Sequence record: MK327931.1
Strand: one strand, 5' to 3'
DNA from: Escherichia phage vB_EcoM_G17
DNA: 64,000 nt
A program made the position numbers and the translations under genes. Shown here piece by piece: positions 12,920 through 34,380 of the stretch (position 1 is the stretch's first letter; each line of letters starts with the position of its first letter). The notes below the pieces were generated by a model. That model was not told where the DNA came from and made no database searches. It saw only the letters and a list, made by a program, of their open reading frames with translations.

Positions 12920-13005
12920 TTTAGTTTCCTTGTAGTGGGGAGAACCATTTCTCCCCTTGATGTAATGTATTATACTTTATTCGATTTACTTTGCAAGTAC
13001 TTTTT

Positions 13006-16219: not shown

Positions 16220-16486
16220 TTATAATCCTTTTACTGCATCAGGTGCGACTACTCCATCAATGTATTGAACATCGTTTTCAACTTCACGGGCGGCATCATT
16301 CAGCAGATCAAAATTAAATTCCATTTCTTCCAGATCATCGAAATCAGGCTCATAACCATTAATTGTTGAATAAGTCCAAGTACCTTTTTCATAAGTTACG
16401 ACACTTACATCAGGGAAGAAATCTTGCACATGATCCATCGCATCCCGAACCAATTGATGTGCAGTTGTGATATTTAAAGTTTTCAT
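16220..16486 (-). CDS. hypothetical protein (88 aa)
   Basis: Track ORF. Confidence 0.55.
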   Translation of the reverse strand: MKTLNITTAHQLVRDAMDHVQDFFPDVSVVTYEKGTWTYSTINGYEPDFDDLEEMEFNFDLLNDAAREVENDVQYIDGVVAPDAVKGL

Positions 16487-16579
16487 TTTGTTGCCCTTTT
16501 AGTGTGAGCGGGGAACCACTCCCCGCCTCGATGTAAAGTATTATACGCTTTTAAACTTAGTTTGCAAGTACTTTTTAAA

Positions 16580-17191
16580 TTAATATGCGATTGATTCTAC
16601 TACGTCATCAATAACATTGAATTGATATTCGTTACCCTCAATCAGTGCCGTAATGTTTTCAGTAGTGAATTGATCCTCATATGCATTCTCTAAATCACGG
16701 TACAACTTGCGGGATAATTCACGAATAGTTTCAGTGAGTAGTTCCTCAAGCTCATTAACTAACGTTTCTTGTTTTGCGGTTAAATCAGTGTAAGCCGATT
16801 CAATGTACCCGCTTACAGTATTCTCATGCGAGTAGTGGGAGTGAGAACGCTTTACACTCATCGCCAAATCATCTTCATTCAGCAGGTGACGGATTGAGCG
16901 ATACTTAGTTAATGCTCTTACCTTGCGTAAAAACTTCACTGCGTCAACGTGGTCAGTACTGATTGATGCACCGTCACCCTGGGACCAAAAACCACTGAAT
17001 TGTATTTCAGCTTCATTAATGCCATATTCCGGTAGTACTGTTTCTTTATAGTATTCAATTTCACTTTCAGAAAAATAATTGTCGTTTGAGTTTTTTTCAC
17101 GTTCCCGAACCAGTTCGATAGCTGACGTTTTTTGTTCTGCGTTCAATTCAGAAAAATCCATAACGAAAGTAGTAGTAGTGATAGTTTTCAT
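16580..17191 (-). CDS. hypothetical protein (203 aa)
   Basis: Track ORF; tandem promoters and structured leader upstream (17200-17400). Confidence 0.65.
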   Translation of the reverse strand: MKTITTTTFVMDFSELNAEQKTSAIELVREREKNSNDNYFSESEIEYYKETVLPEYGINEAEIQFSGFWSQGDGASISTDHVDAVKFLRKVRALTKYRSIRHLLNEDDLAMSVKRSHSHYSHENTVSGYIESAYTDLTAKQETLVNELEELLTETIRELSRKLYRDLENAYEDQFTTENITALIEGNEYQFNVIDDVVESIAY

Positions 17192-17617
17192 TTTGTAACC
17201 CTCATTCAGTAGTTGATGTAAGTATTATACGCTTTTAAAAACATTTGTCAAACTATTTTATCAGGGGAGTTTTTCGTGTGCCTTACTCCTGGGCTACTTA
17301 ACGGGAAGTTACTTATTTCGTTCCCCGTCCTGATGTAAAACATTATACGCCTTTAAACATAGTTTGCAAGTACTTTTTAAAAATAGTTTTCAGTACTGAA
17401 TATTTAAAAAAGTATTGACAGCATTATCAAGTACTGGCATAATATACCCCATGACAACAGCTAACCCACCGGGTGCACAATTGTAACTATACTAAACTAC
17501 TTTTTCTATAGATACACTCCCGCACCCTATGGGCTACGGCTTATCTGCCAATGAATACATTATGCCAGTACTGACAAAATAAGTCAATACCGGCAATTGT
17601 AAAGATTTGTAAACTGC

Positions 17618-17848
17618 TTATACTGCAATCGCGTCCAGGCTATAATAATAATAAGTGCCGTATTGGTGTACTTTATTACCTTTTATTTCAGTACTGAATG
17701 AATCCGAACGGTTTGCATATGATGTTAATTTAAAGTACTTTGATTTGCTGATACGTTGCCATACACCGCAGATCCGCTGTAAGTAAGTAGTTTTATTCGT
17801 GGTAGTATCTTTTACAGTTTTAACTTCAGTCATATACATATTAGTCAT
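17618..17848 (-). CDS. hypothetical protein (76 aa)
   Basis: Track ORF; GGAG SD. Confidence 0.5.
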   Translation of the reverse strand: MTNMYMTEVKTVKDTTTNKTTYLQRICGVWQRISKSKYFKLTSYANRSDSFSTEIKGNKVHQYGTYYYYSLDAIAV

Positions 17849-17935
17849 TTTTATTACTCCAGGTTATAGGCGGGAAGAGTTCCCGCTCTCGATGTAAAAC
17901 ATTATACGCCATTAAACATAGTTTGCAAGTACTTT

Positions 17936-18202
17936 TTATTCAAGTACTGCAATCTTTTTAGTACGGTACACGGTCACGCGGTTGCCCTTTCGGTCGAGCT
18001 TTATTTCTACCACTCGACGCGATACACTATCAGGACTTTTCAACGCCGCTAACCAGTACTGTAATGATCTGGCGGTACTACGCTTTATAATGGCCCAACG
18101 TTTACCACGTTCCGATTGTACGCCCATATCTTTAAACGTTGCCCCGTCCTGGCGTGCGGCGATCCGAGCTTGTTCACGCGTCGCAAAATACTTAATATTC
18201 AT
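17936..18202 (-). CDS. hypothetical protein, paralog of 5754..6149
   Basis: Shares KYFATREQARIAARQDGATFKDMG and DRKGNRVTV motifs with 5754..6149; start trimmed to MNIKYF. Confidence 0.55.
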   Translation of the reverse strand: MNIKYFATREQARIAARQDGATFKDMGVQSERGKRWAIIKRSTARSLQYWLAALKSPDSVSRRVVEIKLDRKGNRVTVYRTKKIAVLE

Positions 18203-18287
18203 GCTGTTGCCCTTATCGTTGGTGTATGAATAAAACACTATTATAAAGTACTATCGCAAAAAATGATAGTACTTTAAATAAATTCTA

Positions 18288-18527
18288 TTACATTCCAACC
18301 ATTGCAGCACGGATCGCAGTAGTGCTATATTTGAATCCGTCCGGCGTTTTATCTTGTCCAGTCTGTTCTAAAAATAACATCATATGACGGGCCGCATCAT
18401 TACGATTAGTATTGGCGGCAATAAAGTCCTGGGCCAACCGGTATAATGATTCATCGTTATTAATCCAAAGGCTTACATTCCAATGAGTTTTGTTTTTGTG
18501 ACCTAAGAACATTTTTGATTTAGCCAT
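18288..18527 (-). CDS. hypothetical protein (79 aa)
   Basis: Track ORF 18288..18566 trimmed to MAKSKMF. Confidence 0.5.
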   Translation of the reverse strand: MAKSKMFLGHKNKTHWNVSLWINNDESLYRLAQDFIAANTNRNDAARHMMLFLEQTGQDKTPDGFKYSTTAIRAAMVGM

Positions 18528-18620
18528 TTTTTTAATCCTCTTATATAGTGGGGAACTATTCCCCACCTGATGTAAAACATTATACGCTTTTAAACATAGT
18601 TTGCAAGTACTTTATTAAAC

Positions 18621-18983
18621 TTATTCGTAAATTTTGCCACTGTCAGCCCATACCAGGAAACGAGGCATATTATCCCATGCATCTTGTTTTAAATTTAAAC
18701 CGTGTAATACTTCTGTACTTTCCATTCCTGGTACTGGTTTACTATACACCGCGAAATTTTCGCCCATATACTGATAAACCATCGTCAAATCACTGGCGAT
18801 CATCTTATGGATCATCGCATCAAGCATCACGGTAGCGGCGTATTGTTCACGCTTAAGCGGCAACATTGTAATAAGTTCCCGATAAGCTGAAATGTGAATT
18901 TTTACCGTTTCAGCCGGAAGACCTTTCATCTCTTCACGGAAGTTGACCAGGTTAGAAATAATTTTATTGATTTGGGTCGCCAT
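18621..18983 (-). CDS. hypothetical protein (120 aa)
   Basis: Track ORF 18621..19040 trimmed to MATQINK (AAGAGA SD). Confidence 0.55.
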   Translation of the reverse strand: MATQINKIISNLVNFREEMKGLPAETVKIHISAYRELITMLPLKREQYAATVMLDAMIHKMIASDLTMVYQYMGENFAVYSKPVPGMESTEVLHGLNLKQDAWDNMPRFLVWADSGKIYE

Positions 18984-19880: not shown

Positions 19881-20868
19881 CTGGAGGGCTAGACATATCT
19901 ACGCCCAAAATCCATCCAGGGTAACTACACCCAAAATCCGTCAGTACTATACCATAGATCTATCTTTTGAAAGGGAGTATTCAGTACTGCCATCATAGCC
20001 CTCACTATGTTACCCTAGGAGGATGAAGACCATCATGTAGTACTGAATACTGTTAGAGGGAATCCACCAGCACAAGCTGGTGGTATAATGCTTTAGATTA
20101 AAATCAGTACTGACACCATTCTGTTAATATCAGTACTGTTATTACGATTTTCATATGAGGTTCAAAAAGATGTACCACCACAGGAGGAACTATCTTTTCT
20201 GTACTGTCTCACGACAGGAGGTAGAGTAAATGAATTGTTCGCAGCAACTCATCACCCCTTGAAGCTATGTAGAACATTATACAGTACTGAATCATAATGT
20301 CAATAGCTTTCTTTCATTATTCAGTACTGATATTCTTGAGAACTACCCGACTACAAACATCATTATATCCCACAAATCATAAACGTCCCAACGTAAATTT
20401 CAACTTTCGAAGATCCAACTTTTATTTCATAGGTACTCCAAAATTTTTAGGATCGAGATTTAGGATGGAGTACTAACCAACTTTTTGCTGGAGCCTCAAG
20501 GGGTAATTGAATTTTACCCCGAAGGGTAAAAGGGTAATTGTAATTAAGGTGAAAGTAATAATTCAGTACTAATCATTGCGTGATTACTTTTGATTACATT
20601 TGATGTAATTTGCAAAATGGAAAAGGAGCTTGGAAACTACAAAGTACGGCAGACTTCCTCTGCCTACTTAGTGGCATATCAGTACTGAATCATTCACACA
20701 CATTTCCGTGCATTCTTGTCTATACTAATCAGTACTGAATCATATATAATCATTCTGTGATTCTACGGTGCTCATATAAATGTTTATATATGATTACTTA
20801 TGACTACCTATGATTACGGGGTTTAGCCTGGGGAGAATCCTAGTGATCGCATTTGTCCAGGCTGAATT

Positions 20869-24937: not shown

Positions 24938-25039
24938 GTGTAGTTCTCCTTATATTCCTTCTATAGTACACCAGTACTGAAAGGATGTCAAGGGTTTTCT
25001 TTATGGGGTAAATATGATATAATGAATAAGGAGGGATTT
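24938..25039. promoter_or_regulatory. divergent promoter region between the small-protein operon (minus) and the MLPF/RCC1-like array (plus)
   Basis: Minus: TTGACA-N17-TACTAT then AAGGAG; plus: TATAAT at about 25016 then AAGGAGGG and ATG at 25040. Confidence 0.55.
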
Positions 25040-26176
25040 ATGTTACCTTTTGTTAGAATGTTAAATTATGGGAACGTAGCACCAGAAAAACTAAAAGTTC
25101 GTGATATTGTTGCAGGTGCTAATTCATTATTACTAATAACCGAGGATAATGAATTATGGGTGCGTGGTAATAATTCGTATGGCAAATTAGGTATAGGAAC
25201 TGATACTATAGTGAATGTAACCGAGTGGACTAAAGTTAGAGATGATGTTAAGTTTGCTTGTGCTAGTAATTTAGTATGCGTTGTATTAACTGTAGATAAT
25301 AAAATTTTCTACTGTGGTGATGAATGGTTTGAATCTGGTGGTTCGACAAGTTCTAAAGTTGTTACATGGAAAGATGTTACGACACAATTTAGTGCAGTGA
25401 ATCTAAGCACAGTACGTGAAATGAAAATGACTTCTTATTGTGTAGGATTACTTACAAATGATAATAGATTATATGCTAAAGGATATGATAATAACCAATC
25501 ATTTGGTGGTTCAACAAGCAAAGTTAATGCTGTATTAGTTGCGTCAAATGTTTCAAAATTCTACACTTCTCTATCTGGTACTATATATTCTAGTACTACT
25601 GGTGGTTACTACCGCTGTGGTATAAGCAATACTGGAGCATTGGGTACTAGCACAAATTTAACTTCTTATAATTTGTACTCTGCTCCCGAATTTGCATCCG
25701 AATGTGCAGTTGGTATGTCAACATTAAACTCTGGTATATTATATTATGATACTAATGGTAGCACTAGATATGTTATAGCAGGTCAAAATAGATATTATCA
25801 ACTAGGTAATTCTTCTTCAAATACCACAAACGTATATTCGTATACAGAATTAACCGGATATAGAGGCAGGTTTAGGGATTTGTGGAGTGATATGAATAAC
25901 TCTGTTCTTTCTTTTGCTATAAGCACAGATGGCAATACTTTATATTATGCTGGTACTAACACTACACTATCTTCTGGTGACCCTGGTGTTGAATATTCAT
26001 CTACATTTAAAGAAGTACCACACGGGTTTAATGATATAACAAAGGCGGCATCGTTAGCCTATCTATCTATAGTGCAAGATTCAACGGGATGGTATTATTC
26101 TGGAAATGCAACTACGTTATATGGTTTGCCATCGAGTGATGAATTTATACCATTACCATTACCAACAATAATTTAA
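25040..26176 (+). CDS. MLPF-family RCC1-like repeat protein R1
   Basis: N-terminus MLPFVRMLNYGNVAP; repeated G-x-N-x-(Y/G)-(G/Q)-LG-x-G motifs (NNSYGKLGIGT, QNRYYQLGNSS); start trimmed from 25022 to the ATG with AAGGAGGG SD. Confidence 0.7.
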   Translation: MLPFVRMLNYGNVAPEKLKVRDIVAGANSLLLITEDNELWVRGNNSYGKLGIGTDTIVNVTEWTKVRDDVKFACASNLVCVVLTVDNKIFYCGDEWFESGGSTSSKVVTWKDVTTQFSAVNLSTVREMKMTSYCVGLLTNDNRLYAKGYDNNQSFGGSTSKVNAVLVASNVSKFYTSLSGTIYSSTTGGYYRCGISNTGALGTSTNLTSYNLYSAPEFASECAVGMSTLNSGILYYDTNGSTRYVIAGQNRYYQLGNSSSNTTNVYSYTELTGYRGRFRDLWSDMNNSVLSFAISTDGNTLYYAGTNTTLSSGDPGVEYSSTFKEVPHGFNDITKAASLAYLSIVQDSTGWYYSGNATTLYGLPSSDEFIPLPLPTII

Positions 26177-26182
26177 ATACAG

Positions 26183-26211
26183 GCCAGTACTTGATACTGG
26201 CTTTTCTTTTT
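26183..26211 (+). terminator. Rho-independent terminator after R1 (GCCAGTA-N5-TACTGGC plus T-run)
   Basis: Inverted repeat followed by ttttctttttt; next promoter -10 TATAAT at 26226-26231. Confidence 0.6.
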
Positions 26212-26247
26212 TGTATTAAATATAGTATAATGAATAAGGAGGGAAAT

Positions 26248-27450
26248 ATGTTACCTTTTGGAAGAATGGTTAAGTACGCAAATATTGCACCAGGTCCAGA
26301 ACCTGTAGAGTTCTCAGATGTTTTACAACAACATTATACAAACTGTATGTATCTCCATAACCCAACTAATACTTTATATGGTTATGGTAGTAATAACTTT
26401 TACCAATTTGGTCTTGGGAATTCAGCAGCAGTTTCGTCATTTACAGTACTTGCAAGGAACTGTGCAGCCTTTTGGCTTGGTGTTCAAGGTTCATTGATGA
26501 TTGATTTGGATAATAAAATATACTACACTGGGTCGGTTGGTGCATTTTCTGATTATGGAGATGCAACACCTGTTAATGGTTATTTGACAACATGGACTGA
26601 TGTTACTGTTGCATTTAATAAAATAGGTGTTATGGCTAATATGATCAAGAGTGTATATATAGGTGAAAGTACTAGAATATTATTAACCGATGGTAGAGTA
26701 ATTGCGTGTGGAAGAAATACTAATGGTGAATGTGGCTCTGGTAATAAAAATTCCATCCCTACACTCACAGTTATGACTAATATGGGTGAAGTTACACATA
26801 TGGCATGTTCATTACAAGGAACGCACTATATCAAATCAAATAAAGATGCATGGTTTTGTGGTAAGGATAACTTTGGTGAAAGTGGATGTGGTGGTAGTTT
26901 TGTTGTATATTTGAACAAATTCGTGATTAGTAATGTAGAACATATTAGTACTACATACGATGTTACTTGGTGGTTTACTACTGGTGGGCCTGTATATTAT
27001 AGCGGGGCTAACAGTTCTGGACAAGCTGGTAATGGTACGACTACATCGGTAAATCAGCTAACACCAATTAGGAACACATCGGTCACGGTTGATGTAAGTA
27101 AGTACAGTACTTTTATTTGTCCAAGTAATATGGGAAATGCATCAATTGGTGCACCTATGGCACAATACGCACCATATGTTAGAAGTAGTGGTGCTAACTC
27201 ATATGGTCAAGAAGGTAATGGAACTAATACATTAGTTAGAACTTGGAATATTTTTAATCTTAGTGCAATAAGTGGTGGTTATGACAATGTTCTTATGGCA
27301 TCTAAAGATTGGAGCAGAACCATAATAATTACTAAAGATTATAAATTATATGCATGTGGTGGCTGGAATGGTAGTGGTGGTAGATTACCTGATGGCACTT
27401 ATAGTATTACTACACTAACATTAATGCCAACGCAGTTATGGCAACAATAG
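26248..27450 (+). CDS. MLPF-family RCC1-like repeat protein R2
   Basis: MLPFGRMVKYANIAP; motifs SNNFYQFGLGN, RNTNGECGSGN, ANSYGQEGNGT; start trimmed from 26191. Confidence 0.7.
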   Translation: MLPFGRMVKYANIAPGPEPVEFSDVLQQHYTNCMYLHNPTNTLYGYGSNNFYQFGLGNSAAVSSFTVLARNCAAFWLGVQGSLMIDLDNKIYYTGSVGAFSDYGDATPVNGYLTTWTDVTVAFNKIGVMANMIKSVYIGESTRILLTDGRVIACGRNTNGECGSGNKNSIPTLTVMTNMGEVTHMACSLQGTHYIKSNKDAWFCGKDNFGESGCGGSFVVYLNKFVISNVEHISTTYDVTWWFTTGGPVYYSGANSSGQAGNGTTTSVNQLTPIRNTSVTVDVSKYSTFICPSNMGNASIGAPMAQYAPYVRSSGANSYGQEGNGTNTLVRTWNIFNLSAISGGYDNVLMASKDWSRTIIITKDYKLYACGGWNGSGGRLPDGTYSITTLTLMPTQLWQQ

Positions 27451-27458
27451 GAGGGAAT

Positions 27459-28568
27459 ATGTTACCTTTTGGAAGAATGATTAGGTATGGAAATATTGTC
27501 CCTGGTCCTAAAAAAATAATTAAAGTTGGTGCTTCTACCCAAGGCCAATTCTTATTGACTGATTCACATGATTTATATTACATAGGTAGAAATCAAGGTG
27601 GTGAATCTGGAAATGGTAATACCAACACGGTGTCTTCGTGGACATTAGTAAGTGCAGATGTTTCTAATTTTTTCGTGGGTGATCGTACACTTGTTATTAT
27701 TAAAAATGATAATACGATATGGACATCAGGTCAAACGTACTGGTTCTCATCTTCTACAACTACTTCTTACAGTACTGTATTAGTTGAAAGAACTAATTGG
27801 TTTACCAATGCTATACCAGTAAGTGAAATTGCTAATATTGTATGCACAAATGGTTTAATATTTGTACTTAGCACTAATTCAGTACTCTATGGTGCAGGAG
27901 ATAATGGATATCGTGGTTCTTTGGGTATTGGTTCATCATCAATTTACACATTAACTCAATGTGCTACGAACGTTCGTAAAGTAATGACCAATGCGAATGA
28001 TAGTATGTATCTTACATTAGATAATAAGCTATATAGTTCTGGATGGAATAGTAGTGGGCAGCATGGTACGGGGAACCAAACACAAATTAACACTTGGGGA
28101 TTGCGTAGTTCTGGTGTAATCGATGCAGCCATTGGTGGTAATGCATTAAATTACTATAATGGTACATCATATTTCGTATGTGGTCAAACTCCAAACTTTC
28201 TTAGTTCAGGTACGACTACATTCCGTGCAGTTCCTTTAAGTACTTTGCCTAATAGTTCTCCATTGTTTATGACGAATTCACCTGCCTTAAATACTGCTAC
28301 ACAAATGGTAATTACTAGTACATATCAGAAGGGTGTTGGGGCGAACCGTGGTTTGGGATTAAACAATTCTCAAACTGGTGCTATATATAGTGCTACCAAT
28401 TTACAATTACCCGTTGAAGTTAGTGAGATTAGGGATGTTCTTTTTAGTGATGGTTTGACATCGATATTAACCAAAAATGGAGACGTGTATAGTACTGGAT
28501 CGTATTACGCCATTCCAGGTGCAATCGAGGATGTTGCAGTCTTTACTAAAATTGATTTACCAAAATAA
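27459..28568 (+). CDS. MLPF-family RCC1-like repeat protein R3
   Basis: MLPFGRMIRYGNIVP; motifs RNQGGESGNGN, DNGYRGSLGIG, WNSSGQHGTGN; no terminator between R2 and R3 (co-transcribed). Confidence 0.7.
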   Translation: MLPFGRMIRYGNIVPGPKKIIKVGASTQGQFLLTDSHDLYYIGRNQGGESGNGNTNTVSSWTLVSADVSNFFVGDRTLVIIKNDNTIWTSGQTYWFSSSTTTSYSTVLVERTNWFTNAIPVSEIANIVCTNGLIFVLSTNSVLYGAGDNGYRGSLGIGSSSIYTLTQCATNVRKVMTNANDSMYLTLDNKLYSSGWNSSGQHGTGNQTQINTWGLRSSGVIDAAIGGNALNYYNGTSYFVCGQTPNFLSSGTTTFRAVPLSTLPNSSPLFMTNSPALNTATQMVITSTYQKGVGANRGLGLNNSQTGAIYSATNLQLPVEVSEIRDVLFSDGLTSILTKNGDVYSTGSYYAIPGAIEDVAVFTKIDLPK

Positions 28569-28574
28569 CATAAT

Positions 28575-28604
28575 GCCAGTACTCTGTACTGGCTTTCTTA
28601 TTTG
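28575..28604 (+). terminator. Rho-independent terminator after R3
   Basis: GCCAGTAC-tct-GTACTGGC then T-rich tract. Confidence 0.6.
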
Positions 28605-28638
28605 TATTAAATATAGTATAATGAATAAAGGAGGGAAT

Positions 28639-29808
28639 ATGTTACCTTTTGGAAGAATGATTAAGTACGGAAATATTGCACCTGCTAAACCAAATATTAA
28701 AAAAATACTTGCTAACAACTATAATGTTGCTGTTTTAACAAACAGTGGTGATTTATATGTGCGTGGTGAGAATGCAAATGGTCTTTTGGGTTTAGGTCAC
28801 AAAAATACTGTTACTACATGGACTTATAGTACTTCTGGTGTTCAAGATTTTTGGATGGGAGCCACGACGATAGTTCTTAAGAAAAGCAATGATGAAATAT
28901 GGTACAGTGGAAGTTCAACAACTGTTGGTATGAAAGGGGCAGCAGTATCAATATGGACTTCTGCTATGCCAACATTCGATACATTAACATTACCAATATT
29001 AGATATAGCAGTTAGTTATCAGACTACAAGTGTGTTACTGTCAGACCAAACAATATGGAGTACTGGAGTGGGGTCAGATGGTCAGTTGGGTGATGGGACA
29101 ACAACTAACAATATTGCTGGTAAATTCGTCAAAAGTACTGTTCCGGCCGCAGCAAATCAATTACCTGTTAAATTGTTTGCAAGTAATTTAATGCACGGTT
29201 ATGTTACAAACCAAGGATGGCTATTTTATACAGGAAGAGTAAATGCAGTTACAAGTTCAGGAAGTAAGTTATATACTATATATTATGGTGCTCCTACCAG
29301 CTTAAGAAATACAATTAATATCAAGTACTACACGGAGAATGGTACTTCAATGGCAATGGCAATTGGTACTGATCCAAATGGAAAAACCATCATCGCAAAT
29401 GGCGGTTCGAGAATATTTGGTGCACAAGCAGATGGGACAAATGGTTCTCTCAATGATTATAGAGCATTTGAGGTTCAAACTGCTTCACTAATGCCACCCG
29501 GTGATGTAGTAAGCATTGCTAACAATACTTCATATTATAACCAAGTTATTGCTACAACAGATGGTATATATTGTTGCGGCTACAATCAATCTTCAGAAGC
29601 TGGTATGTTAGGTATTGGTACATCTACCAATGCATTGGTATATACCAAAGCAATCGTGCCTGATGGGTTTGATTATAGTAAGTCGCAGATGGCAGGTGGG
29701 TATAACCGAACTTATATAACTGATGGTAATTTTGTATATAGCACAGGGACAAATGTCACATATGGTGGCGTTAGTAGCTTAGAATTTGTATTAGATTCAC
29801 CAGTTTAA
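28639..29808 (+). CDS. MLPF-family RCC1-like repeat protein R4
   Basis: MLPFGRMIKYGNIAP; motifs ENANGLLGLGH, VGSDGQLGDGT, YNQSSEAGMLGIGT; start trimmed from 28477. Confidence 0.7.
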   Translation: MLPFGRMIKYGNIAPAKPNIKKILANNYNVAVLTNSGDLYVRGENANGLLGLGHKNTVTTWTYSTSGVQDFWMGATTIVLKKSNDEIWYSGSSTTVGMKGAAVSIWTSAMPTFDTLTLPILDIAVSYQTTSVLLSDQTIWSTGVGSDGQLGDGTTTNNIAGKFVKSTVPAAANQLPVKLFASNLMHGYVTNQGWLFYTGRVNAVTSSGSKLYTIYYGAPTSLRNTINIKYYTENGTSMAMAIGTDPNGKTIIANGGSRIFGAQADGTNGSLNDYRAFEVQTASLMPPGDVVSIANNTSYYNQVIATTDGIYCCGYNQSSEAGMLGIGTSTNALVYTKAIVPDGFDYSKSQMAGGYNRTYITDGNFVYSTGTNVTYGGVSSLEFVLDSPV

Positions 29809-29814
29809 ATATAT

Positions 29815-29845
29815 GCCAGTACTCTGTACTGGCATTCTTATTTGT
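29815..29845 (+). terminator. Rho-independent terminator after R4
   Basis: GCCAGTAC-tct-GTACTGGC then attcttatttg. Confidence 0.55.
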
Positions 29846-29879
29846 ATTAAATATAGTATAATGAATAAAGGAGGGAAAT

Positions 29880-31028
29880 ATGTTACCTTTTGCAAGAATG
29901 ATGAATTATGGGAATATTGCCCCTGGTAAGGATAGGCGTTTTAAAATATATTCAAGTGATTCTATGTATCTTCATGATACTTATACTAATAAGTTGTATG
30001 CATCTTCTGCGACGAATTGGGGTACTGGAACAGGTGTAGCATCGAGTAAATTTATTCTTTGTGCAGAGAATGTTAAACGAGTTCTATTGGAAGATAACAG
30101 TAGTAGTTGTCAATTGTATGAAGAGAAAGGTACTGGAAAAGTTTTTATCACTGGTAACACGAAGGCATTCACTGGTGTAACTGATACAAAAACTTTGTGG
30201 ACGGACTGTACTACGTGGATAACATCAGGTGGTATTAATGTTTCTGATATAAAATACATGAGTAGTTTTAATGATATGAAGGTGAATTTGATAACAAACG
30301 ATGGTACGTTGTATTGTTGTGGAGTTAACAATAACTCGAACCTATCATCATTTGGTGATGGTACAAACATTAATTCTTTTAACACATTCAAAAGGGTAGA
30401 TACTATAACTTCGGTTAAAAAGGCAGTTGGTAACATATACCTAAAAGAAGATAATACTTTATGGGGTTGTGGTTTTAACTATTACTATCAGTTAGGTACA
30501 GGTAATCAAACTTCTATTACTGGGGTGACGATGATTGCTTCGGATGTTATAGATTTTGATGTAAGTTATCAAAGTACATTTTTTATTAAATCGGATAATA
30601 ATTTGTACGCTTGTGGTAAACAGTTCGGTGCACAATACGGGAACGAATTTGGCACAGGTGGTACTTCTTCATCTACCGATATACAATACAAAACTCCGAC
30701 ATTATTGAGTTCAGGAGTTTATACTCTATATACTTGTGTTAGTAACATGGCATCACATATAGCTAAAGGTGATGAAGTTCTATACGCATCTGGGTCGAAT
30801 GGATTTGGTCAATTAGGTGTTGGTAATAATATTAATCAGTACTCATATACTCCTTCGTATACTTCGTTTAATAGTTCGTGTAATTTGGTACGCACTCCAT
30901 CTGGTTCACTTATACTTACGGACACTGAGCAATTATATTATTGTGGGTATGCTATGGTAGTAATGGGGGGAATTGCTGGACAAAACATTCTTAGTTATAC
31001 AGAAGTTGATATGTCATTTATACAATGA
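29880..31028 (+). CDS. MLPF-family RCC1-like repeat protein R5
   Basis: MLPFARMMNYGNIAP; motifs FNYYYQLGTGN, SNGFGQLGVGN. Confidence 0.7.
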   Translation: MLPFARMMNYGNIAPGKDRRFKIYSSDSMYLHDTYTNKLYASSATNWGTGTGVASSKFILCAENVKRVLLEDNSSSCQLYEEKGTGKVFITGNTKAFTGVTDTKTLWTDCTTWITSGGINVSDIKYMSSFNDMKVNLITNDGTLYCCGVNNNSNLSSFGDGTNINSFNTFKRVDTITSVKKAVGNIYLKEDNTLWGCGFNYYYQLGTGNQTSITGVTMIASDVIDFDVSYQSTFFIKSDNNLYACGKQFGAQYGNEFGTGGTSSSTDIQYKTPTLLSSGVYTLYTCVSNMASHIAKGDEVLYASGSNGFGQLGVGNNINQYSYTPSYTSFNSSCNLVRTPSGSLILTDTEQLYYCGYAMVVMGGIAGQNILSYTEVDMSFIQ

Positions 31029-31034
31029 TTTAAT

Positions 31035-31063
31035 GCCAGTACACTGTACTGGCTTTCTTATTT
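31035..31063 (+). terminator. Rho-independent terminator after R5
   Basis: GCCAGTAC-act-GTACTGGC then T-rich tract. Confidence 0.6.
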
Positions 31064-31099
31064 GTATTAAATATAGTATAATGAATAAAGGAGGAATTT

Positions 31100-32242
31100 A
31101 TGTTACCTTTTGCAAGAATGATGAATTATGGGAATATTGCACCAGAACCAAAACCTCTATTTAAAAATAGATTACAAGCAAATTATAATACTCGTTTTTA
31201 TTTGCATGTTAATGGTGACTTGTACTGGTATGGTTCATCTTCATTTGGACAAGGTGGTAATGGTTCATTACAATCATCCACCGTATGGACCCGTGTGAAT
31301 AATAATATTGAACGTTACTGGGGTGGTGTTCTTGGTTCCATTGCCATTAAGAATGATGGAACTATTTGGTTCACAGGTGCTAGTATAGTAATGCCACAAA
31401 TCGGAACAAATACAAATGGGGTTTGGATTGATGTAACCCAGTACTTCACTGATTTTGGTGTCAGTGCTGATGATATTGATGGTATTGCTGTTGGGCAGAA
31501 TTTGCGTGTATTTTTAAAAAATGGAAAATGGTTCTACTGTGGTACTGGCGAAGCTGGTGTATTTGGTAACGCGTCAACAGCTAATGTCACATCGTTCAGA
31601 TACAGCACTATAGAAAATGTTAAAAGTTATGGCTGTTCTTTGCTCAGTACTGGGTTAGTACTTGATGATGGCTCCTATTGGTATGCAGGAAATACTGTTG
31701 CTCCTGGTAGTACAAAAACATCAAATATATTAAGTTTTACAAAAGACAATACGATCACCAATGCTATACAAGCTGTAAATACATACCGTACTTCATATAT
31801 ATTTCTTAATGATGGTTCAGTGAAGGTTGCTTCACCAAATGCATATGGTCAAGCTGGTGTAGGTACAGTATCAGCAGTACCAATGAGTACATTAATTCCC
31901 AATTTATCATTCCAAGGTGAAATAGAGTTGGTGGGTGGTTTATCCAACAACGAAGGGAATGGATGTGTTGTTAAAAATAATAATAAGTTATATACTTGTG
32001 GTCGAAATACCTATGGTCTATGTGGTGTTAATCAAACATCCGAAAATATACTAACTTTCACCGAAATGGTTCTTGATGCATTAGAAGGAAGACGAATTTC
32101 AGGCTTCGTAAATGATAATTTCTATTCAATGATAATTGATGAAAATAACAATTTGTATATGTGTGGTTTGGCTGAACTTGGAAATGTTCCAGTCAATAGA
32201 GTTCCAACAAGGGTTCCTGATTCACTTCTACCGTGGAAATAA
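31100..32242 (+). CDS. MLPF-family RCC1-like repeat protein R6
   Basis: MLPFARMMNYGNIAP; motifs SSSFGQGGNGS, PNAYGQAGVGT, RNTYGLCGVN. Confidence 0.7.
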   Translation: MLPFARMMNYGNIAPEPKPLFKNRLQANYNTRFYLHVNGDLYWYGSSSFGQGGNGSLQSSTVWTRVNNNIERYWGGVLGSIAIKNDGTIWFTGASIVMPQIGTNTNGVWIDVTQYFTDFGVSADDIDGIAVGQNLRVFLKNGKWFYCGTGEAGVFGNASTANVTSFRYSTIENVKSYGCSLLSTGLVLDDGSYWYAGNTVAPGSTKTSNILSFTKDNTITNAIQAVNTYRTSYIFLNDGSVKVASPNAYGQAGVGTVSAVPMSTLIPNLSFQGEIELVGGLSNNEGNGCVVKNNNKLYTCGRNTYGLCGVNQTSENILTFTEMVLDALEGRRISGFVNDNFYSMIIDENNNLYMCGLAELGNVPVNRVPTRVPDSLLPWK

Positions 32243-32248
32243 TATAAT

Positions 32249-32278
32249 GCCAGTATCAAGTACTGGCATTTCTTTTTG
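32249..32278 (+). terminator. Rho-independent terminator after R6
   Basis: GCCAGTA-tcaag-TACTGGC then T-rich tract. Confidence 0.6.
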
Positions 32279-32312
32279 ATTAAATATAGTATAACAAATA
32301 AAGGAGGGAATT

Positions 32313-33500
32313 ATGTTACCTTTTGCAAGAATGATGAATTATGGGAATATTGCCCCAGTACCACTTCAAATTAAGAAAATAATCCCAACTGATTTAGATG
32401 TTGTGGTTCTGTATACGGATGGTCAACTATATGCACGTGGGAATAATAGTTTTGGGAAATTCGGTAGAGGAAACAACACTGCATTAAAATCATGGACATT
32501 AATTAGAGAAAACGTTAACGATTGCTGGCTTACACAAGGAACTTTATTAGTAAAAGACAATGACTCAAATTATTATTACTGTGGATATGGTAGTCATATT
32601 GGTTTATCAACTAGTACTACTACGTTTTTAAGTTATAACCAATATATTCAAAATTTGTACACACAAAGTTCAAGTACTTCAATTAAACAGATGTATGGAG
32701 GTACTACGTGGTTTACTTTCTTAATGGACAATAATACAATATGGAGTACAGGGTGGAACAGTGCTAGACAATTCGCCGATGGAACGGGAACTACTTATGA
32801 AATAACCGATGGTTCATTTGTAAAAGCGGTCACACCTAATGTTGATATTGCACAAATACAGTCAACAAATAACTGTGTATTGTTGTTTGATAAACAAAAT
32901 AATTTATATATTGGTGGTGTTACATCCGGTATAAGTTCCGCGACTACATGGACTTCATATAATCAATATACTTTATATCAACCAAATACAACATACACAA
33001 AAACGTTACAATACACAGGATGCTCAACTGGTGCAGTAAGTGCTTTAGTTGAAAATCCAAATACAGGAGCACGTCAGTTCCTTGTCGGTGGGTTAGCTAA
33101 TAATGGGGCATGGGGAAATAACACTACATCTAGCTCTGTTAATGGAGTTTTAGGAAATAACAGTACGACGTTACCACCCGGTACTTTGTATTCAATTCAT
33201 ACTGGATACCCACCACAATCTAGTATACTAATTACGAGTACTGGTGTATATGCAACTGGTTTAAATGCCAGTAGTTATGCTGGTTCATTGGGTATTGGTA
33301 CTAGTGCAACTGTTGGTAAGTTTACTGCATGTCCAATGCCTACACAAATAACATATTCTATGTATGATAAAATAAAAATATATAGAGGTTCATATCGTAC
33401 ATTTCTAACTGATATGAAAAATATATATTCAACCGGAACTTATGATGATGGTGGTCCTAGTACAACTAGATATGTACTAGATACACCCCGACAATTATAA
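32313..33500 (+). CDS. MLPF-family RCC1-like repeat protein R7
   Basis: MLPFARMMNYGNIAP; motifs NNSFGKFGRGN, NASSYAGSLGIGT. Confidence 0.7.
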   Translation: MLPFARMMNYGNIAPVPLQIKKIIPTDLDVVVLYTDGQLYARGNNSFGKFGRGNNTALKSWTLIRENVNDCWLTQGTLLVKDNDSNYYYCGYGSHIGLSTSTTTFLSYNQYIQNLYTQSSSTSIKQMYGGTTWFTFLMDNNTIWSTGWNSARQFADGTGTTYEITDGSFVKAVTPNVDIAQIQSTNNCVLLFDKQNNLYIGGVTSGISSATTWTSYNQYTLYQPNTTYTKTLQYTGCSTGAVSALVENPNTGARQFLVGGLANNGAWGNNTTSSSVNGVLGNNSTTLPPGTLYSIHTGYPPQSSILITSTGVYATGLNASSYAGSLGIGTSATVGKFTACPMPTQITYSMYDKIKIYRGSYRTFLTDMKNIYSTGTYDDGGPSTTRYVLDTPRQL

Positions 33501-33507
33501 TATAATA

Positions 33508-33537
33508 GCCAGTACTCAGTACTGGCTTTTCTTTTTG
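33508..33537 (+). terminator. Rho-independent terminator after R7
   Basis: GCCAGTAC-tca-GTACTGGC then ttttctttttg. Confidence 0.6.
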
Positions 33538-33572
33538 TATTAAATATATTATAATGAATAAAGGAGGGAATT

Positions 33573-34310
33573 ATGTTACCTTTTGGAAGAATGATTAAGT
33601 ACGGGAATGAAATTGAATATAAGCCACATGGTGAACAATTAATCACGACAATAGGAACAACACAATTTACAGTTCCTGCTGGCGTTACCGAAATATCAGT
33701 ATGTGTTATTTCGCCGGGTGGTCAACGTGGTGCTGGCGGCGGCTTATCGTGGCGTAATAATATTCCGGTTACTAGTGGTGAGTACTTAAGTGTTTCTCTT
33801 ACGCATACCAACACTACTACACCAGTTGAAAACGGTTTATATCGTGGAACTGAAAAACTATGTGTTAGCTTCACTGGTGCATATACGGTTGGTGGACTAG
33901 GTGGAAAAGCTGCTAACGCTATTAATGATGGTGGTGGTAATGGTGGCAATACTGGTGTAAGTGGTGGTGCAGTCATTGGTGGTGGTGCTGGTGGCTACAC
34001 AGGTAAAGGTGGTAACGGAGATGCAATCACTGGTGAAAATGGTGCTGGCGGCGGCGGGGGCGGTGGTACATTCTATAATACCTCGTTCATTGGTACGGGT
34101 GGTGGTACTGGTATCATTGTTCAAGGTGCTAATGGTATTGGTGGTAGCTACGGTGGTTCATATAATGGTGGTGCTGGTAGTGGTGGTGCTGGTAAGATGT
34201 ATGGTGGTGGTGGTAGTATATGGGATAATTCTTCTTATACGGCTGCTGGTGGTGGTGCTGTGCGAATAATATGGGGAAATGGGAGATATTATCCTAACAA
34301 TTCAGTATAA
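33573..34310 (+). CDS. MLPF-family glycine-rich protein R8 (245 aa)
   Basis: Same promoter/RBS cassette and N-terminus MLPFGRMIKYGN, but body is Gly-rich (GGAGGYTGKGGNGDAITGENGAGGGGGGG...). Confidence 0.65.
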   Translation: MLPFGRMIKYGNEIEYKPHGEQLITTIGTTQFTVPAGVTEISVCVISPGGQRGAGGGLSWRNNIPVTSGEYLSVSLTHTNTTTPVENGLYRGTEKLCVSFTGAYTVGGLGGKAANAINDGGGNGGNTGVSGGAVIGGGAGGYTGKGGNGDAITGENGAGGGGGGGTFYNTSFIGTGGGTGIIVQGANGIGGSYGGSYNGGAGSGGAGKMYGGGGSIWDNSSYTAAGGGAVRIIWGNGRYYPNNSV

Positions 34311-34317
34311 AATATAG

Positions 34318-34347
34318 GCCAGTACAGAGTACTGGCTTTTCTTTTTG
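34318..34347 (+). terminator. Rho-independent terminator after R8
   Basis: GCCAGTAC-aga-GTACTGGC then ttttctttttg. Confidence 0.6.
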
Positions 34348-34380
34348 ATTAAATATAGTATAATGAATAAAGGAGGAAAT

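What the first reader, a model, noticed from the sequence alone, without database searches (positions are those of the whole stretch)
26177..26250. Near-identical junction cassette repeated before each array gene
Before R2, R4, R5, R6, R7, R8 and R9 the same roughly 70 nt DNA recurs: stop codon, hairpin GCCAGTAC-loop-GTACTGGC, T-rich tract, TTGTATTAAATATAGTATAATGAATAAAGGAGGGAAT, then ATG. The first 45 or so coding nucleotides (atgttaccttttggaagaatgattaagtacggaaatattgcacc) are also conserved at the DNA level. The upstream -35 position is poor (TTTCTT), so these may be activator-dependent or late-type promoters. The repeated identical DNA provides homology for unequal recombination, which could expand, contract or shuffle cassettes. 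R2-R3 and R9-R10-R11-R12 lack the hairpin and look co-transcribed.
Basis: seen in the sequence. Interest (0 to 1): 0.8.

Follow-up and report, generated by a model that had tools for sequence, protein, structure and literature searches.

The report
Repeated terminator-promoter-tag cassette in phage gene array
In a giant E. coli phage, a row of a dozen very different genes share one near-identical 115-base unit (stop signal, late start signal, ribosome site and a 15-residue protein tag), and related phages have gained, lost and reordered whole genes exactly at these units.

Summary
The window is Escherichia phage Sharanji, a Rak2-like jumbo myovirus of the genus Asteriusvirus. Seven 70-72 nt junctions, before R2 and R4-R9, are 86% identical to each other. 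The first 45 coding nt are 85-88% identical. The gene bodies share only about 20-25% of their amino acids.

Each junction holds four parts. There is a hairpin followed by a T-run, which looks like an intrinsic terminator. There is a TAAATA-N3-TATAAT element, and TAAATA is the T4-like late-promoter core found upstream of this phage's structural genes. There is a strong ribosome-binding site. Last comes the start of an invariant N-terminal peptide, MLPFxRMxxYGN.

Six relatives carry 10-17 cassettes in different orders with different contents. Nearly all homology-block ends fall inside the conserved unit, so whole cassettes are exchanged at the junctions.

The tag is predicted not to be part of the RCC1-like propeller. 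It also heads Kelch, lectin-like and Gly-rich virion proteins in other Rak2-like phages.

The closest known system is the PeSL promoter/stem-loop cassettes of T4-type phages. This is a late-promoter variant that carries an in-frame tag. Transcription, termination and tag function are inferred, not shown.

The parts
26177..26292 (+). Junction cassette before R2. Hairpin 26181-26203, T-run, TAAATATAGTATAAT + SD 26217-26243, ATG 26248, then the conserved first 45 coding nt.
   Evidence: hairpin -11.6 kcal/mol, z -3.1
28569..28683 (+). Junction cassette before R4. Hairpin 28575-28593, promoter/SD 28608-28634, ATG 28639.
   Evidence: -12.4 kcal/mol, z -4.0
29809..29924 (+). Junction cassette before R5. 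Hairpin 29813-29835, promoter/SD 29848-29874, ATG 29880.
   Evidence: -16 kcal/mol, z -5.8
31029..31144 (+). Junction cassette before R6. Hairpin 31035-31053, promoter/SD 31068-31094, ATG 31100.
32243..32357 (+). Junction cassette before R7. Hairpin 32246-32270, promoter/SD 32281-32307 (TATAAC variant), ATG 32313.
33501..33617 (+). Junction cassette before R8. Hairpin 33507-33527, promoter/SD 33541-33567, ATG 33573. The downstream body is not RCC1-like.
34311..34425 (+). Junction cassette before R9. Hairpin 34316-34338, promoter/SD 34350-34376, ATG 34381.
25005..25084 (+). Partial cassette before R1. GGGGTAAATAtgaTATAAT (TAAATA 25009-25014, TATAAT 25018-25023), SD, ATG 25040 and the tag codons. 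There is no intact hairpin. The upstream CCAGTACTGAAAGG resembles the type-B junction of phage EJP2.
39078..39148 (+). Decaying cassette after R12 / before the R13 remnant. Hairpin 39083-39105, T-run, degenerate promoter CTAAATATAATAAC, SD GGAGG.
   Evidence: -15.5 kcal/mol
27451..27458 (+). Tight 8-nt R2-R3 junction (SD only, no hairpin or promoter).
35557..35564 (+). Tight 8-nt R9-R10 junction (SD only).
36686..36717 (+). R10-R11 junction. It has a 10-nt spacer. TTTAAATATAATATAA, a relic of the cassette promoter, lies inside the 3' coding end of R10.
25040..26176 (+). R1 (gp106), RCC1-like, 378 aa, N-terminus MLPFVRMLNYGN.
26248..27450 (+). R2 (gp107), RCC1-like, 400 aa.
27459..28568 (+). 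R3 (gp108), 369 aa, a member of the RCC1-like paralogue alignment.
28639..29808 (+). R4 (gp109), 389 aa. Modelled as a 7-bladed RCC1-like propeller with a low-confidence N-terminal tag.
29880..31028 (+). R5 (gp110), 382 aa.
31100..32242 (+). R6 (gp111), RCC1-like, 380 aa.
32313..33500 (+). R7 (gp112), 395 aa.
33573..34310 (+). R8 (gp113), 245 aa. It is a Gly-rich protein (phrog_4474) with no RCC1 body but the same tag, MLPFGRMIKYGN.
34381..35556 (+). R9 (gp114), RCC1-like, 391 aa.
35565..36707 (+). R10 (gp115), RCC1-like, 380 aa.
36718..37897 (+). R11 (gp116). The ORF 36718-37527 encodes 269 aa. The rest of the RCC1-like reading frame continues out of frame to 37897.
37908..39077 (+). R12 (gp117), RCC1-like, 389 aa.
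39149..39558 (+). R13 remnant (gp118 plus a downstream fragment). It is a 44-aa MLPFRRI... ORF followed by an internally deleted, decayed C-terminal part.

Best explanation
The repeated unit is a self-contained regulatory-plus-tag cassette about 115 bp long. It sits at the 5' side of most genes in a tandem array of highly diverged paralogues, gp106-gp118 of Escherichia phage Sharanji.

Read 5' to 3', it has four parts:
(a) A stable hairpin followed by a T-run. It lies directly after the upstream stop codon and would end the upstream transcript as an intrinsic terminator.
(b) TTAAATA-tag-TATAAT. Its TAAATA core belongs to the phage's T4-like late-promoter class, which would be read by host RNA polymerase with the phage's gp55-like late sigma factor.
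(c) A strong Shine-Dalgarno sequence, AAGGAGG.
(d) The first roughly 15 codons, encoding MLPFxRMxxYGN(IAP).

This peptide is an unstructured N-terminal motif that is not part of the beta-propeller body. Most probably it directs or anchors the protein in the virion.

Because the unit is nearly identical between genes whose bodies are otherwise unalignable at the DNA level, it is the only substrate for homologous recombination in the array. Crossovers and gene conversion within it delete, insert, replace and reorder whole cassettes. Every recombinant still has a terminator, a late promoter, a ribosome site and an in-frame tag.

Shown here:
- the sequence anatomy;
- the conservation contrast between junctions and bodies;
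- genome-wide specificity of the unit;
- the promoter-class match;
- cassette-level mosaicism among relatives, with boundaries in the unit;
- the tag's conservation and modular distribution.

Inferred:
- termination;
- late initiation;
- recombination as the cause of the mosaicism;
- the tag's role in virion association.
For: Anatomy and conservation. Junctions are 86% identical and the first 45 nt 85-88%, against 48-51% nt and about 20-25% aa for the bodies. The 27-mer occurs 7 times against 0 expected.

Terminator.
- Hairpins fold at -11.6 to -16 kcal/mol with z of -3.1 to -5.8, and the T-run follows on the + strand.
- Across 71 junctions from 7 phages there are 22 distinct predicted loop sequences, while the stem stays paired.
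- There are compensatory changes: GCCAG/CTGGC to ACCAG/CTGGT, and to GTCAG/CTGAC.

Late promoter.
- (T)ATAAATA/TAAATA lies upstream of the capsid, sheath, baseplate and other structural genes.
- It is present within -65 to -10 of 44% of predicted starts in the structural region and 64% in the array, against 5% in small-gene regions and 1.6% by chance (Fisher p = 6e-14).
- gp368 matches late sigma factors (phrog_12791, E = 2e-154).
- TAAATA is kept in every partial or degenerate copy, while TATAAT is not.
- CBB and GAP32 late promoters were predicted as ATAAATA (PMC5259590).
- Eight array proteins of phAPEC6 are in the virion proteome (PMC7247149).

Specificity. The core at up to 1 mismatch, the GCCAGTAC hairpin and the ATGTTACCTTTT gene start are essentially confined to the array within the 350-kb genome.

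Recombination.
- Cassette orders differ. Sharanji has N A B O D P C G Q R H E S. slurp01 has N K W A B T D C I F R E V. phAPEC6 has ac P B A O C G F Q H J E S. WPEC3 has D K M L A B E I Y C U F H am Z aa.
- Homology blocks start at -99 to -1 and end at -110 to +54 relative to an array ATG; most lie within -76..-10 and +24..+54. The exceptions are two ends at the R13 deletion.
- PBECO4 lacks cassette N. The crossover maps to the stretch shared by the R1 and R2 junctions.
- 354 of 465 informative site pairs within the block show all four haplotypes.
- Orthologous bodies carry different tag variants in different phages.

Tag.
- M1, L2, P3, F4 and N12 are invariant, and R6, Y10 and G11 nearly so, in 66 proteins that are otherwise 25% identical.
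- The AlphaFold2 model is confident overall (pLDDT 87), but residues 1-13 score below 50.
- The same tag heads the Gly-rich R8 and the CBB virion proteins CBB_144, 537, 551, 552 and 553.
- It also heads Kelch, RCC1+Kelch and ConA-like lectin proteins in other Rak2-like genomes.
Against: - No transcript ends or starts have been mapped for any Asteriusvirus. I found no such data.
- The junction's element is TTAAATA or GTAAATA, whereas the structural genes mostly have ATAAATA. A perfect TATAAT sits 3 nt downstream, so sigma-70 or dual use cannot be excluded.
- The T-run is interrupted (TTTCTTATTTG in several copies), so termination may be partial.
- Block ends inside the shared unit are partly expected by construction. 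An alignment runs through any shared sequence, and selection would remove genes broken elsewhere.
- Repeats of about 115 bp can mislead short-read assemblies, so some order differences between published genomes could be artefacts. Content differences cannot.
- Within-genome homogenisation of the tag region is statistically clear but small (0.724 against 0.690 identity).
- The virion role of the tag rests on correlation with mass-spectrometry lists, with only 1-5 peptides per protein.
Confidence: 0.72

Rival explanations
1. The junctions are ordinary host sigma-70 promoters, using TATAAT as the -10 and the T-rich tract as an UP-like element. They would drive early or constitutive expression, and the late-promoter resemblance is coincidental in AT-rich DNA.
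For: A perfect TATAAT is present in 6 of the 7 full Sharanji junctions. It is conserved, with the same 3-nt spacing from TAAATA, in both junction flavours across phages. The phage also encodes an RpoD-like sigma factor.
Against: There is no -35 (TTTCTT) and no TGn. The general scan finds no excess of sigma-70-like sites in the region (98 found against 103.6 expected). The phage's evident early promoters have a strong -35, GTACTTGCA. None of the 14 predicted array starts has a sigma-70-like match. TATAAT is lost in R7 (TATAAC) and R13 while TAAATA is kept. Tag-gene promoters in other genera keep GGGTAAATAC but not TATAAT. The products are virion proteins.
Confidence: 0.15
2. The similarity is only the residue of recent tandem duplication or common descent. 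The junctions have no role in recombination, and array differences between phages arose by other means.
For: The array is clearly a paralogue family, and tandem duplication was proposed for these phages (PMC7247149).
Against: The bodies are about 20-25% identical in protein and saturated at the DNA level, while the junctions are 86% identical. Simple descent would decay both together. A non-homologous body (R8) is flanked by the same unit. Synonymous codons are fixed (CCT in 72 of 72, against 31% in bodies). Four-gamete mosaicism is found within the unit. Cassette order is permuted between phages, with boundaries in the unit.
Confidence: 0.05
3. The hairpin acts mainly at the DNA level rather than as an RNA terminator. 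It could be a protein-binding or cruciform site related to the genome-wide CAGTACTG palindrome, and it might itself stimulate recombination.
For: The arms GCCAGTAC/GTACTGGC are the two halves of CCAGTACTGG. CAGTACTG occurs 64 times in the window against 0.9 expected, and 199 times in the genome.
Against: The hairpin always lies directly after a stop codon and is followed by a T-run on the transcribed strand only. Loops vary freely and the stems show compensatory or wobble changes, as expected for a folded RNA. The GCCAGTAC-loop form is confined to the array, unlike the unsplit palindrome. The two roles are not mutually exclusive.
Confidence: 0.12
4. The conserved 45 coding nucleotides are an mRNA-level element, such as a translation enhancer or a structure masking the ribosome site, rather than a functional peptide.
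For: Synonymous positions in codons 2-4, 6 and 11 are almost invariant. RNAalifold pairs AGGAGG with CCUUUU.
Against: The predicted helix is weak and no better than shuffles (MFE about -4.4 kcal/mol, z about 0 to +1.5). In other genera the same amino-acid motif is encoded with different codons (CCA in 26 of 33). The motif is conserved at the protein level on unrelated bodies.
Confidence: 0.06

Closest known systems
PeSLs (promoter-early stem-loop cassettes) of T4-type phages (Arbiol et al. 2010, PMC2839356; Comeau et al. 2014, PMC4122927)
   Same: Both are composite intergenic units of about 100 bp. Each runs from the upstream stop codon, through a stem-loop terminator and a promoter, to the Shine-Dalgarno sequence and start codon. 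Both are repeated many times in the most plastic parts of the genome. In both, insertions, deletions and replacements between related phages map to the units, and recombinants keep their own regulation (compared).
   Different: PeSL promoters are consensus sigma-70 early promoters with -35 and -10 boxes and an upstream AT-rich region, and they serve small early ORFans. Here there is no -35. The conserved core is the late-type TAAATA. The genes are virion-associated paralogues of about 380 aa. The conserved unit continues 45 nt into the coding sequence as an in-frame tag. The host phage is a Rak2-like jumbo myovirus. The mini-circles described for PeSLs were not tested here.
Internal-protein (Ip) genes of T-even phages, with a shared N-terminal capsid-targeting leader
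   Same: A set of otherwise unrelated proteins shares only a short N-terminal leader that directs packaging into the virion. They lie in a variable hotspot (PMC12373910, citing Repoila et al. 1994, which I could not read).
   Different: There is no sequence resemblance to the T4 leader as I recall it. I saw no consistent Glu-type cleavage motif after the tag when inspecting the N-termini printed, but this was not formally tested. The passengers here are 20-75 kDa propeller or lectin-like binding domains, which suggests surface display rather than ejected anti-restriction proteins. Their location in the virion is unknown.
Short conserved N-terminal anchor peptides of secondary receptor-binding proteins in phages with branched tail-fibre or tailspike sets (from memory, for example KP32-type Klebsiella phages; not checked in a paper here)
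   Same: A short conserved N-terminus is joined to interchangeable C-terminal binding domains, which lets many different modules dock on one virion site.
   Different: No docking partner is identified here. The tag is only about 12-15 residues long, and its passengers are not tailspike depolymerases.
T4-type late promoters (TATAAATA, read by the gp55 sigma factor)
   Same: A -10-like A/T element stands alone without a -35. It is enriched upstream of the structural genes, and a gp55-like sigma factor is encoded.
   Different: The junction has TTAAATA or GTAAATA rather than TATAAATA, and it carries an additional conserved TATAAT 3 nt downstream. The T4 co-factors gp33 and gp45 were reported missing in the related phage CBB (PMC5259590).

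Membership tests
PeSL-type regulatory cassette | Composite intergenic unit: upstream stop codon, stem-loop, promoter, SD and start codon within about 100 bp | tested here: met
PeSL-type regulatory cassette | The promoter matches the sigma-70 early consensus (-35 and -10 with an upstream AT-rich region) | tested here: not met
   The -35 position reads TTTCTT. No sigma-70-like match was found at any of the 14 predicted array starts. The conserved core is the late-type TAAATA.
PeSL-type regulatory cassette | Repeated in a plastic region; indels and replacements between related phages map to the cassettes | tested here: met
PeSL-type regulatory cassette | Recombination between neighbouring cassettes yields excised mini-circles | not testable with these tools
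   This needs outward-facing PCR or long reads from infected cells or virions.
Intrinsic (Rho-independent) terminator | G+C-containing stem-loop directly followed by a U-rich tract on the transcribed strand | tested here: met
   Stems have 8-11 pairs, fold at -11.6 to -16 kcal/mol, and a T-run follows on the + strand. Stem pairing is kept despite loop variation. Termination itself was not measured.
T4-type late promoter | TATAAATA-like element without a -35, enriched upstream of late or structural genes | tested here: met
   The TAAATA core is in all 9 cassette copies. Enrichment is 44% against 5% against 1.6%. The junction matches 6 of the 8 positions of TATAAATA.
T4-type late promoter | The phage encodes a gp55-type late sigma factor | tested here: met
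   gp368 matches phrog_12791 'sigma factor for late transcription' (E = 2e-154) and phrog_234 (E = 8e-18).
T4-type late promoter | Transcription starts a few nt downstream, late in infection | not testable with these tools
   I found no transcriptome for Asteriusvirus.
Sigma-70 promoter | A -10 TATAAT with a -35 TTGACA at 16-18 nt, or an extended -10 TGn | tested here: not met
   The -10 is present. The -35 matches 2 of 6 positions, and there is no TGn.
RCC1-like repeat beta-propeller (gene bodies) | RCC1 repeats and a seven-bladed propeller fold | tested here: met
   PF00415 and PF13540 score above their cut-offs. PF25390 matches at E = 1e-15 to 1e-31 but below its cut-off. The AlphaFold2 model has pLDDT 87. 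Foldseek gives TM 0.77 to UVR8, and RCC1 and HERC2 RLD are also matched. R8 is the exception.
T4 Ip-type capsid-targeting leader | An N-terminal leader shared by otherwise unrelated virion proteins | tested here: met
   This is an analogy of architecture only.
T4 Ip-type capsid-targeting leader | The leader is removed by the prohead protease at a conserved Glu-containing site, and the proteins lie inside the head | tested here: inconclusive
   I saw no consistent Glu motif after the tag in the N-termini printed. Cleavage and location were not measured.
Integron-like site-specific gene cassettes | An adjacent integrase and attC-type recombination sites | tested here: not met
   No integrase is annotated in the flanking 10 kb. 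The repeat is a promoter/terminator unit and recombination appears homologous. The neighbouring proteins were not profiled individually.

The most novel reading that the evidence does not exclude
The unit and its in-frame tag form a plug-and-play display system that needs no integrase. Any open reading frame recombined in behind the 115-bp cassette is insulated by a terminator and expressed late. Through the MLPFxRMxxYGN docking peptide it is then mounted on the virion.

The mounting site may be the unexplained 'hairy' whiskers or capsid fibres of Rak2-like phages.

The phage population would thus share and shuffle a large library of propeller, lectin-like and Gly-rich binding modules. At least 39 body types occur in seven genomes.
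Probability: 0.35. Interest if true: 0.75.

Novelty: new variant of a known kind. Interest (0 to 1): 0.6.

Why it matters
The finding gives a concrete sequence-level mechanism for how one of the most variable regions of Rak2-like jumbo phages gains, loses and reorders genes without breaking their regulation.

It extends the PeSL idea of mobile regulatory cassettes from early ORFans of T4-type phages to late, virion-associated genes.

It adds a new feature. The recombining unit carries an in-frame N-terminal tag, so the product's destination travels with its regulation.

The tag is a simple, searchable marker (MLPFx5YGN) for a family of virion proteins with propeller, lectin-like and Gly-rich bodies. 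Published work on CBB and phAPEC6 could not assign the hair-like appendages to genes. Four of the six CBB structural proteins singled out as candidates carry this tag, which makes that question directly testable.

For phage engineering, the cassette is a candidate ready-made module for late expression and virion display of foreign domains.

Tried and rejected
(1) Nucleus-forming phage. I first assumed a Goslar/phiKZ-type phage with its own RNA polymerases. I rejected this: the record is an Asteriusvirus, a Rak2-like phage with T4-like core genes and sigma factors.

(2) Known RNA family in the junction. Rfam at E <= 1 gave only three sub-threshold chance hits, none on a junction.

(3) A ribosome-site-masking helix between AGGAGG and CCUUUU, suggested by RNAalifold. 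Rejected: MFE is about -4.4 kcal/mol and z about 0 to +1.5.

(4) The junction as the phage's general terminator or promoter. Rejected: the GCCAGTAC hairpin and the exact core are confined to the array. Only the TAAATA core is shared with other late genes.

(5) gp194, a lone + strand gene with a similar upstream motif, as a dispersed array member. Rejected: it has no RCC1 match and no tag. It is a different virion structural protein.

(6) The N-terminal segment as the propeller's closing strand. Not supported: residues 1-13 have pLDDT below 50, and the tag also occurs on non-propeller proteins.

(7) The literature holds no description of this cassette or tag. The Sharanji, phAPEC6, CBB and fEgEco12 papers mention RCC1-like multi-copy genes or tandem duplication only. 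Repoila et al. 1994 could not be read.

(8) The CMSTMSU record is riddled with frameshifts and marked UNVERIFIED, so I excluded it from the quantitative tests.
Full report
**Identity of the window.** A 6.1-kb query from the array matches Escherichia phage Sharanji (OR545507.1, 350,079 bp, genus Asteriusvirus) at 100% identity. It gives partial, patchy matches to 35 other Escherichia and Salmonella jumbo phages. Window coordinate equals record coordinate minus 15,777. The array corresponds to gp106-gp118. Nearly all are annotated as hypothetical, on the + strand, between blocks of small minus-strand genes. They fit exactly: R1 25040-26176, R2 26248-27450, R3 27459-28568, R4 28639-29808, R5 29880-31028, R6 31100-32242, R7 32313-33500, R8 33573-34310, R9 34381-35556, R10 35565-36707, R11 36718-37527, R12 37908-39077, and a decayed R13 from 39149.

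**Checking the observation.**
- Seven intergenic regions of 70-72 nt, before R2, R4, R5, R6, R7, R8 and R9, have the stated order: stop codon, GCCAGTAC-loop-GTACTGGC, T-rich tract, TTAAATATAGTATAATGAATAAAGGAGG, ATG.
- The 27-mer core is found 7 times at up to 3 mismatches, against 0.00 expected. The hairpin pattern is found 10 times against 0.28 expected.
It fails to refute. Mean pairwise identity is 86% for the junction and 85-88% for the first 45 coding nt. It is 48-51% for the bodies and 47% for the last 60 coding nt.
- Body protein identity is 15-30% for all pairs but one, R9/R12 at 36%.
- The alignment shows a block from about -66 to +45 with sharp edges.
- R3, R10 and R11 follow their upstream gene after 8-10 nt. 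R12 follows 380 nt of out-of-frame R11 remnant. None of these has a hairpin.

**The hairpin.**
- Each hairpin folds at -11.6 to -16 kcal/mol, with z-scores of -3.1 to -5.8 against shuffles. The terminator scan picks each one up, with a T-rich tail on the + strand.
- Across 71 distinct junctions from seven phages there are 22 distinct predicted loop sequences, while the stem stays paired. Changes include G-U wobbles and compensatory substitutions: GCCAG/CTGGC to ACCAG/CTGGT, and to GTCAG/CTGAC.
- This is the pattern expected of a selected stem-loop. Its position and its one-sided T-run fit an intrinsic terminator. Termination itself has not been shown.
- In the whole genome the GCCAGTAC-loop-GTACTGGC form occurs only in the array, with one related hairpin just downstream.

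**The promoter.**
There is also no TGn.
- I assembled the whole Sharanji genome from the record and read the upstream regions of its structural genes. The capsid, prohead protease, baseplate, sheath and many neighbouring genes have (T)ATAAATA or TAAATA 17-45 nt before the ATG.
- Using crude gene calls, TAAATA lies within -65 to -10 of 44% of starts in the structural region and 64% in the array. The figures are 5% in the small-gene regions and 1.6% by chance (Fisher p = 6e-14).
- This matches the ATAAATA late motif predicted for the related phages CBB and GAP32 (PMC5259590).
- Sharanji gp368, annotated as hypothetical, matches late sigma factors (phrog_12791, E = 2e-154; phrog_234, E = 8e-18).
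- By contrast, the apparent early promoters of the minus-strand small genes have a strong -35 (AAAAAGTACTTGCA-N17-TATAAT).
- In the cassettes TAAATA is kept in every copy, including the degenerate ones. TATAAT is not: R7 has TATAAC and R13 has lost it.
- Tag-gene promoters in other genera keep GGGTAAATAC.
- I therefore read the junction as a late promoter. The conserved TATAAT 3 nt downstream has an unresolved meaning. It could be part of the initiation region or a secondary sigma-70 site.
- Eight array proteins of the close relative phAPEC6 were detected in purified virions, at 1-5 unique peptides each (PMC7247149). That fits late expression.

**The coding part of the unit.**
- In an alignment of 66 array proteins from six phages, M1, L2, P3, F4 and N12 are invariant, and R6, Y10 and G11 nearly so. 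The proteins are otherwise 25% identical per column.
- An AlphaFold2 model of R4 built with that alignment is a confident seven-bladed propeller (pLDDT 87, pTM 0.87). Residues 1-13 score below 50. Its closest solved folds are UVR8, RCC1 and HERC2 RCC1-like domains (TM 0.77). So the most conserved segment is not predicted to be part of the fold.
- R8 has the same tag on a Gly-rich body with no RCC1 match (phrog_4474).
- Its distant homologue in Pectobacterium phage CBB, the structural protein CBB_144, starts MLPFSPLIVYGN.
- A scan of IMG/VR for MLPFx5YGN gene starts found the tag on many genes of 168-676 aa in Rak2-like genomes and 355-371 kb metagenomic contigs. These include 121Q, CBB with eight, and GAP32. 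The genes are often preceded by a terminator and GGGTAAATAC.
- Their bodies are Kelch propellers, an RCC1+Kelch fusion, ConA-like lectin (Laminin_G_3) domains, or unknown.
- In CBB the tagged genes are CBB_144, 537 and 550-554. Of these, 144, 537, 551, 552 and 553 were detected in virions.
- The CBB authors argued that structural proteins absent from the non-hairy GAP32 (144, 247, 536, 537, 551, 552) are the candidates for its tail whiskers. Four of those six carry the tag.
- This is correlation, not proof. The tag's role as a virion-incorporation or docking peptide is my inference.

**DNA-level versus protein-level conservation.**
- Within Asteriusvirus arrays, synonymous positions are nearly fixed. 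Codon 3 is CCT in 72 of 72 genes (31% in bodies). Codon 2 is TTA in 71 of 72. Codon 11 is never GGT (62% in bodies).
- In other genera the same motif uses CCA in 26 of 33 genes.
- So the peptide is selected as a peptide, and within this genus the DNA is additionally kept uniform.
- Non-orthologous genes in the same phage have slightly more similar tag regions than those in different phages (0.724 against 0.690; 0 of 2000 permutations reached this). Orthologous bodies carry different tag variants in different phages.
- An mRNA-structure explanation was tested and rejected.

**Recombination.**
- I fetched the arrays of PBECO4, phAPEC6, slurp01, EJP2, CMSTMSU and WPEC3. I grouped bodies at 75% or more nucleotide identity.
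- Copy number ranges from 10 to 17, and at least 39 body types occur.
- Order differs. Sharanji has N A B O D P C G Q R H E S. PBECO4 has A B T D C I F U ab V. phAPEC6 has ac P B A O C G F Q H J E S. slurp01 has N K W A B T D C I F R E V. EJP2 has L B ad D X M A ae J af ag ah W ai. WPEC3 has D K M L A B E I Y C U F H am Z aa.
- In pairwise megablast between Sharanji and each relative, array blocks start at -99 to -1 and end at -110 to +54 relative to an array-gene ATG. Most lie within -76..-10 and +24..+54. The exceptions are two ends at the internal deletion of R13.
- PBECO4 lacks cassette N. Its first gene has R1's upstream sequence joined to R2's body within the stretch the two junctions share.
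- The junction downstream of body D stays with D whether P (Sharanji) or C (PBECO4) follows. This places that crossover near the 3' end of the tag.
- Tight junctions also recombine. Body A is followed by B in Sharanji and by O in phAPEC6.
- Within 42 aligned junction blocks, 354 of 465 informative site pairs show all four haplotypes.
- Two junction flavours exist. They share the hairpin core, T-run, TAAATA-N3-TATAAT, SD and ATGTTACCTTTT. WPEC3 and CMSTMSU mix both.

**Caveats on the recombination evidence.** Alignments naturally run through any shared unit. Selection removes broken genes. A 115-bp repeat can confuse short-read assemblies, although differences in content cannot arise that way.

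**Comparison with what is known.** The closest described system is the PeSL of T4-type phages. These are units of about 100 bp running from stop codon through stem-loop terminator and promoter to SD and start. They are concentrated in hyperplastic regions, have been shown to terminate and promote, and are proposed to mediate modular shuffling and to yield mini-circles (PMC2839356; PMC4122927). The Sharanji unit works like a PeSL but fails one defining feature, the sigma-70 early promoter. It differs further in three ways. It serves late, virion-associated paralogues. It lies in a Rak2-like jumbo phage. It extends into the coding sequence as an in-frame tag. The tag recalls the N-terminal packaging leader that is the only shared sequence of T-even internal proteins (PMC12373910). 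I found no paper that describes this cassette or the tag.

**Verdict.** The feature is best described as a late-promoter, tag-carrying variant of PeSL-type mobile regulatory cassettes. The recombination role has good comparative support. The terminator, promoter timing and tag function remain inferences awaiting transcript mapping and virion-incorporation tests.

Noticed in passing
whole window (e.g. 282-289, 20105-20112, 24972-24979, 33517-33524); whole Sharanji genome: The palindromic octamer CAGTACTG is hugely over-represented. It occurs 64 times in the window against 0.9 expected from dinucleotide shuffles, and 199 times in the 350-kb genome. Control palindromes are rare (GAGTACTC 4, CAGATCTG 0). 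AGTACT occurs 903 times. The junction hairpin arms are the two halves of this palindrome. Its meaning is unknown; it could be a binding, modification or restriction-related motif.
   Followed up: partly
window 36718-37897 (R11): R11 is frameshifted. It has a 269-aa ORF, and the rest of the RCC1-like frame (including a GQLGNG motif) continues out of frame. The same truncated ORF is present in phAPEC6, where gp007 was detected in virions with 3 peptides, and in WPEC3 at 264 aa. The frameshift is therefore old and the short product is made.
   Followed up: partly
window 39149-39558 (R13): This is a decayed last cassette. It has a 44-aa MLPFRRI... ORF ending in a stop, an internal deletion relative to PBECO4 and slurp01, and a C-terminal fragment resembling the end of R4. 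Its hairpin is intact but its promoter is degenerate.
   Followed up: partly
window minus strand, e.g. 2397-2408 and 12969-12980 (record 18188, 28760): The small minus-strand genes are preceded by strong sigma-70-like promoters with a shared extended form, AAAAAGTACTTGCA-N17-(A)AGTATAAT. These are presumably the early promoter class. The -35 region contains the AGTACT motif.
   Followed up: no
window 40210-40233: A 10-bp-stem hairpin, ATCCAGTACttaaTAGTACTGGAT, has the same CCAGTAC core. It lies between two minus-strand genes just beyond the array, but its T-run is on the + strand.
   Followed up: no
L004:17053-17892 (Sharanji record 196052-196891, outside the window): gp368 is annotated as a hypothetical protein. 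It is a clear homologue of T4 gp55-type late sigma factors (phrog_12791, E = 2e-154). The published description of Sharanji mentions only the RpoD-like sigma factor.
   Followed up: yes
L059:7040-10965 and L024 (Pectobacterium phage CBB, record about 351.5-355.5 kb): CBB has its own cluster of five consecutive tagged genes (CBB_550-554) with Kelch and ConA-like bodies, plus dispersed ones (CBB_144, 537 and one more). The tagged-gene cluster is therefore not limited to RCC1-like bodies or to Asteriusvirus.
   Followed up: partly
L014 (WPEC3) 16400-18900; L013 (CMSTMSU): The WPEC3 and CMSTMSU arrays mix type-A junctions with EJP2-like type-B junctions and bodies. This suggests cassette transfer between Asteriusvirus lineages. 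The CMSTMSU record has many broken array ORFs and is flagged UNVERIFIED, so sequencing errors are likely.
   Followed up: partly
L002:8229-9383 (Sharanji gp194, outside the window): This is a lone + strand gene among minus-strand genes. It has ATAAATAcgtTATAAT upstream and matches a virion structural protein family (phrog_10468). It looks like another late gene embedded in an early-type region.
   Followed up: partly
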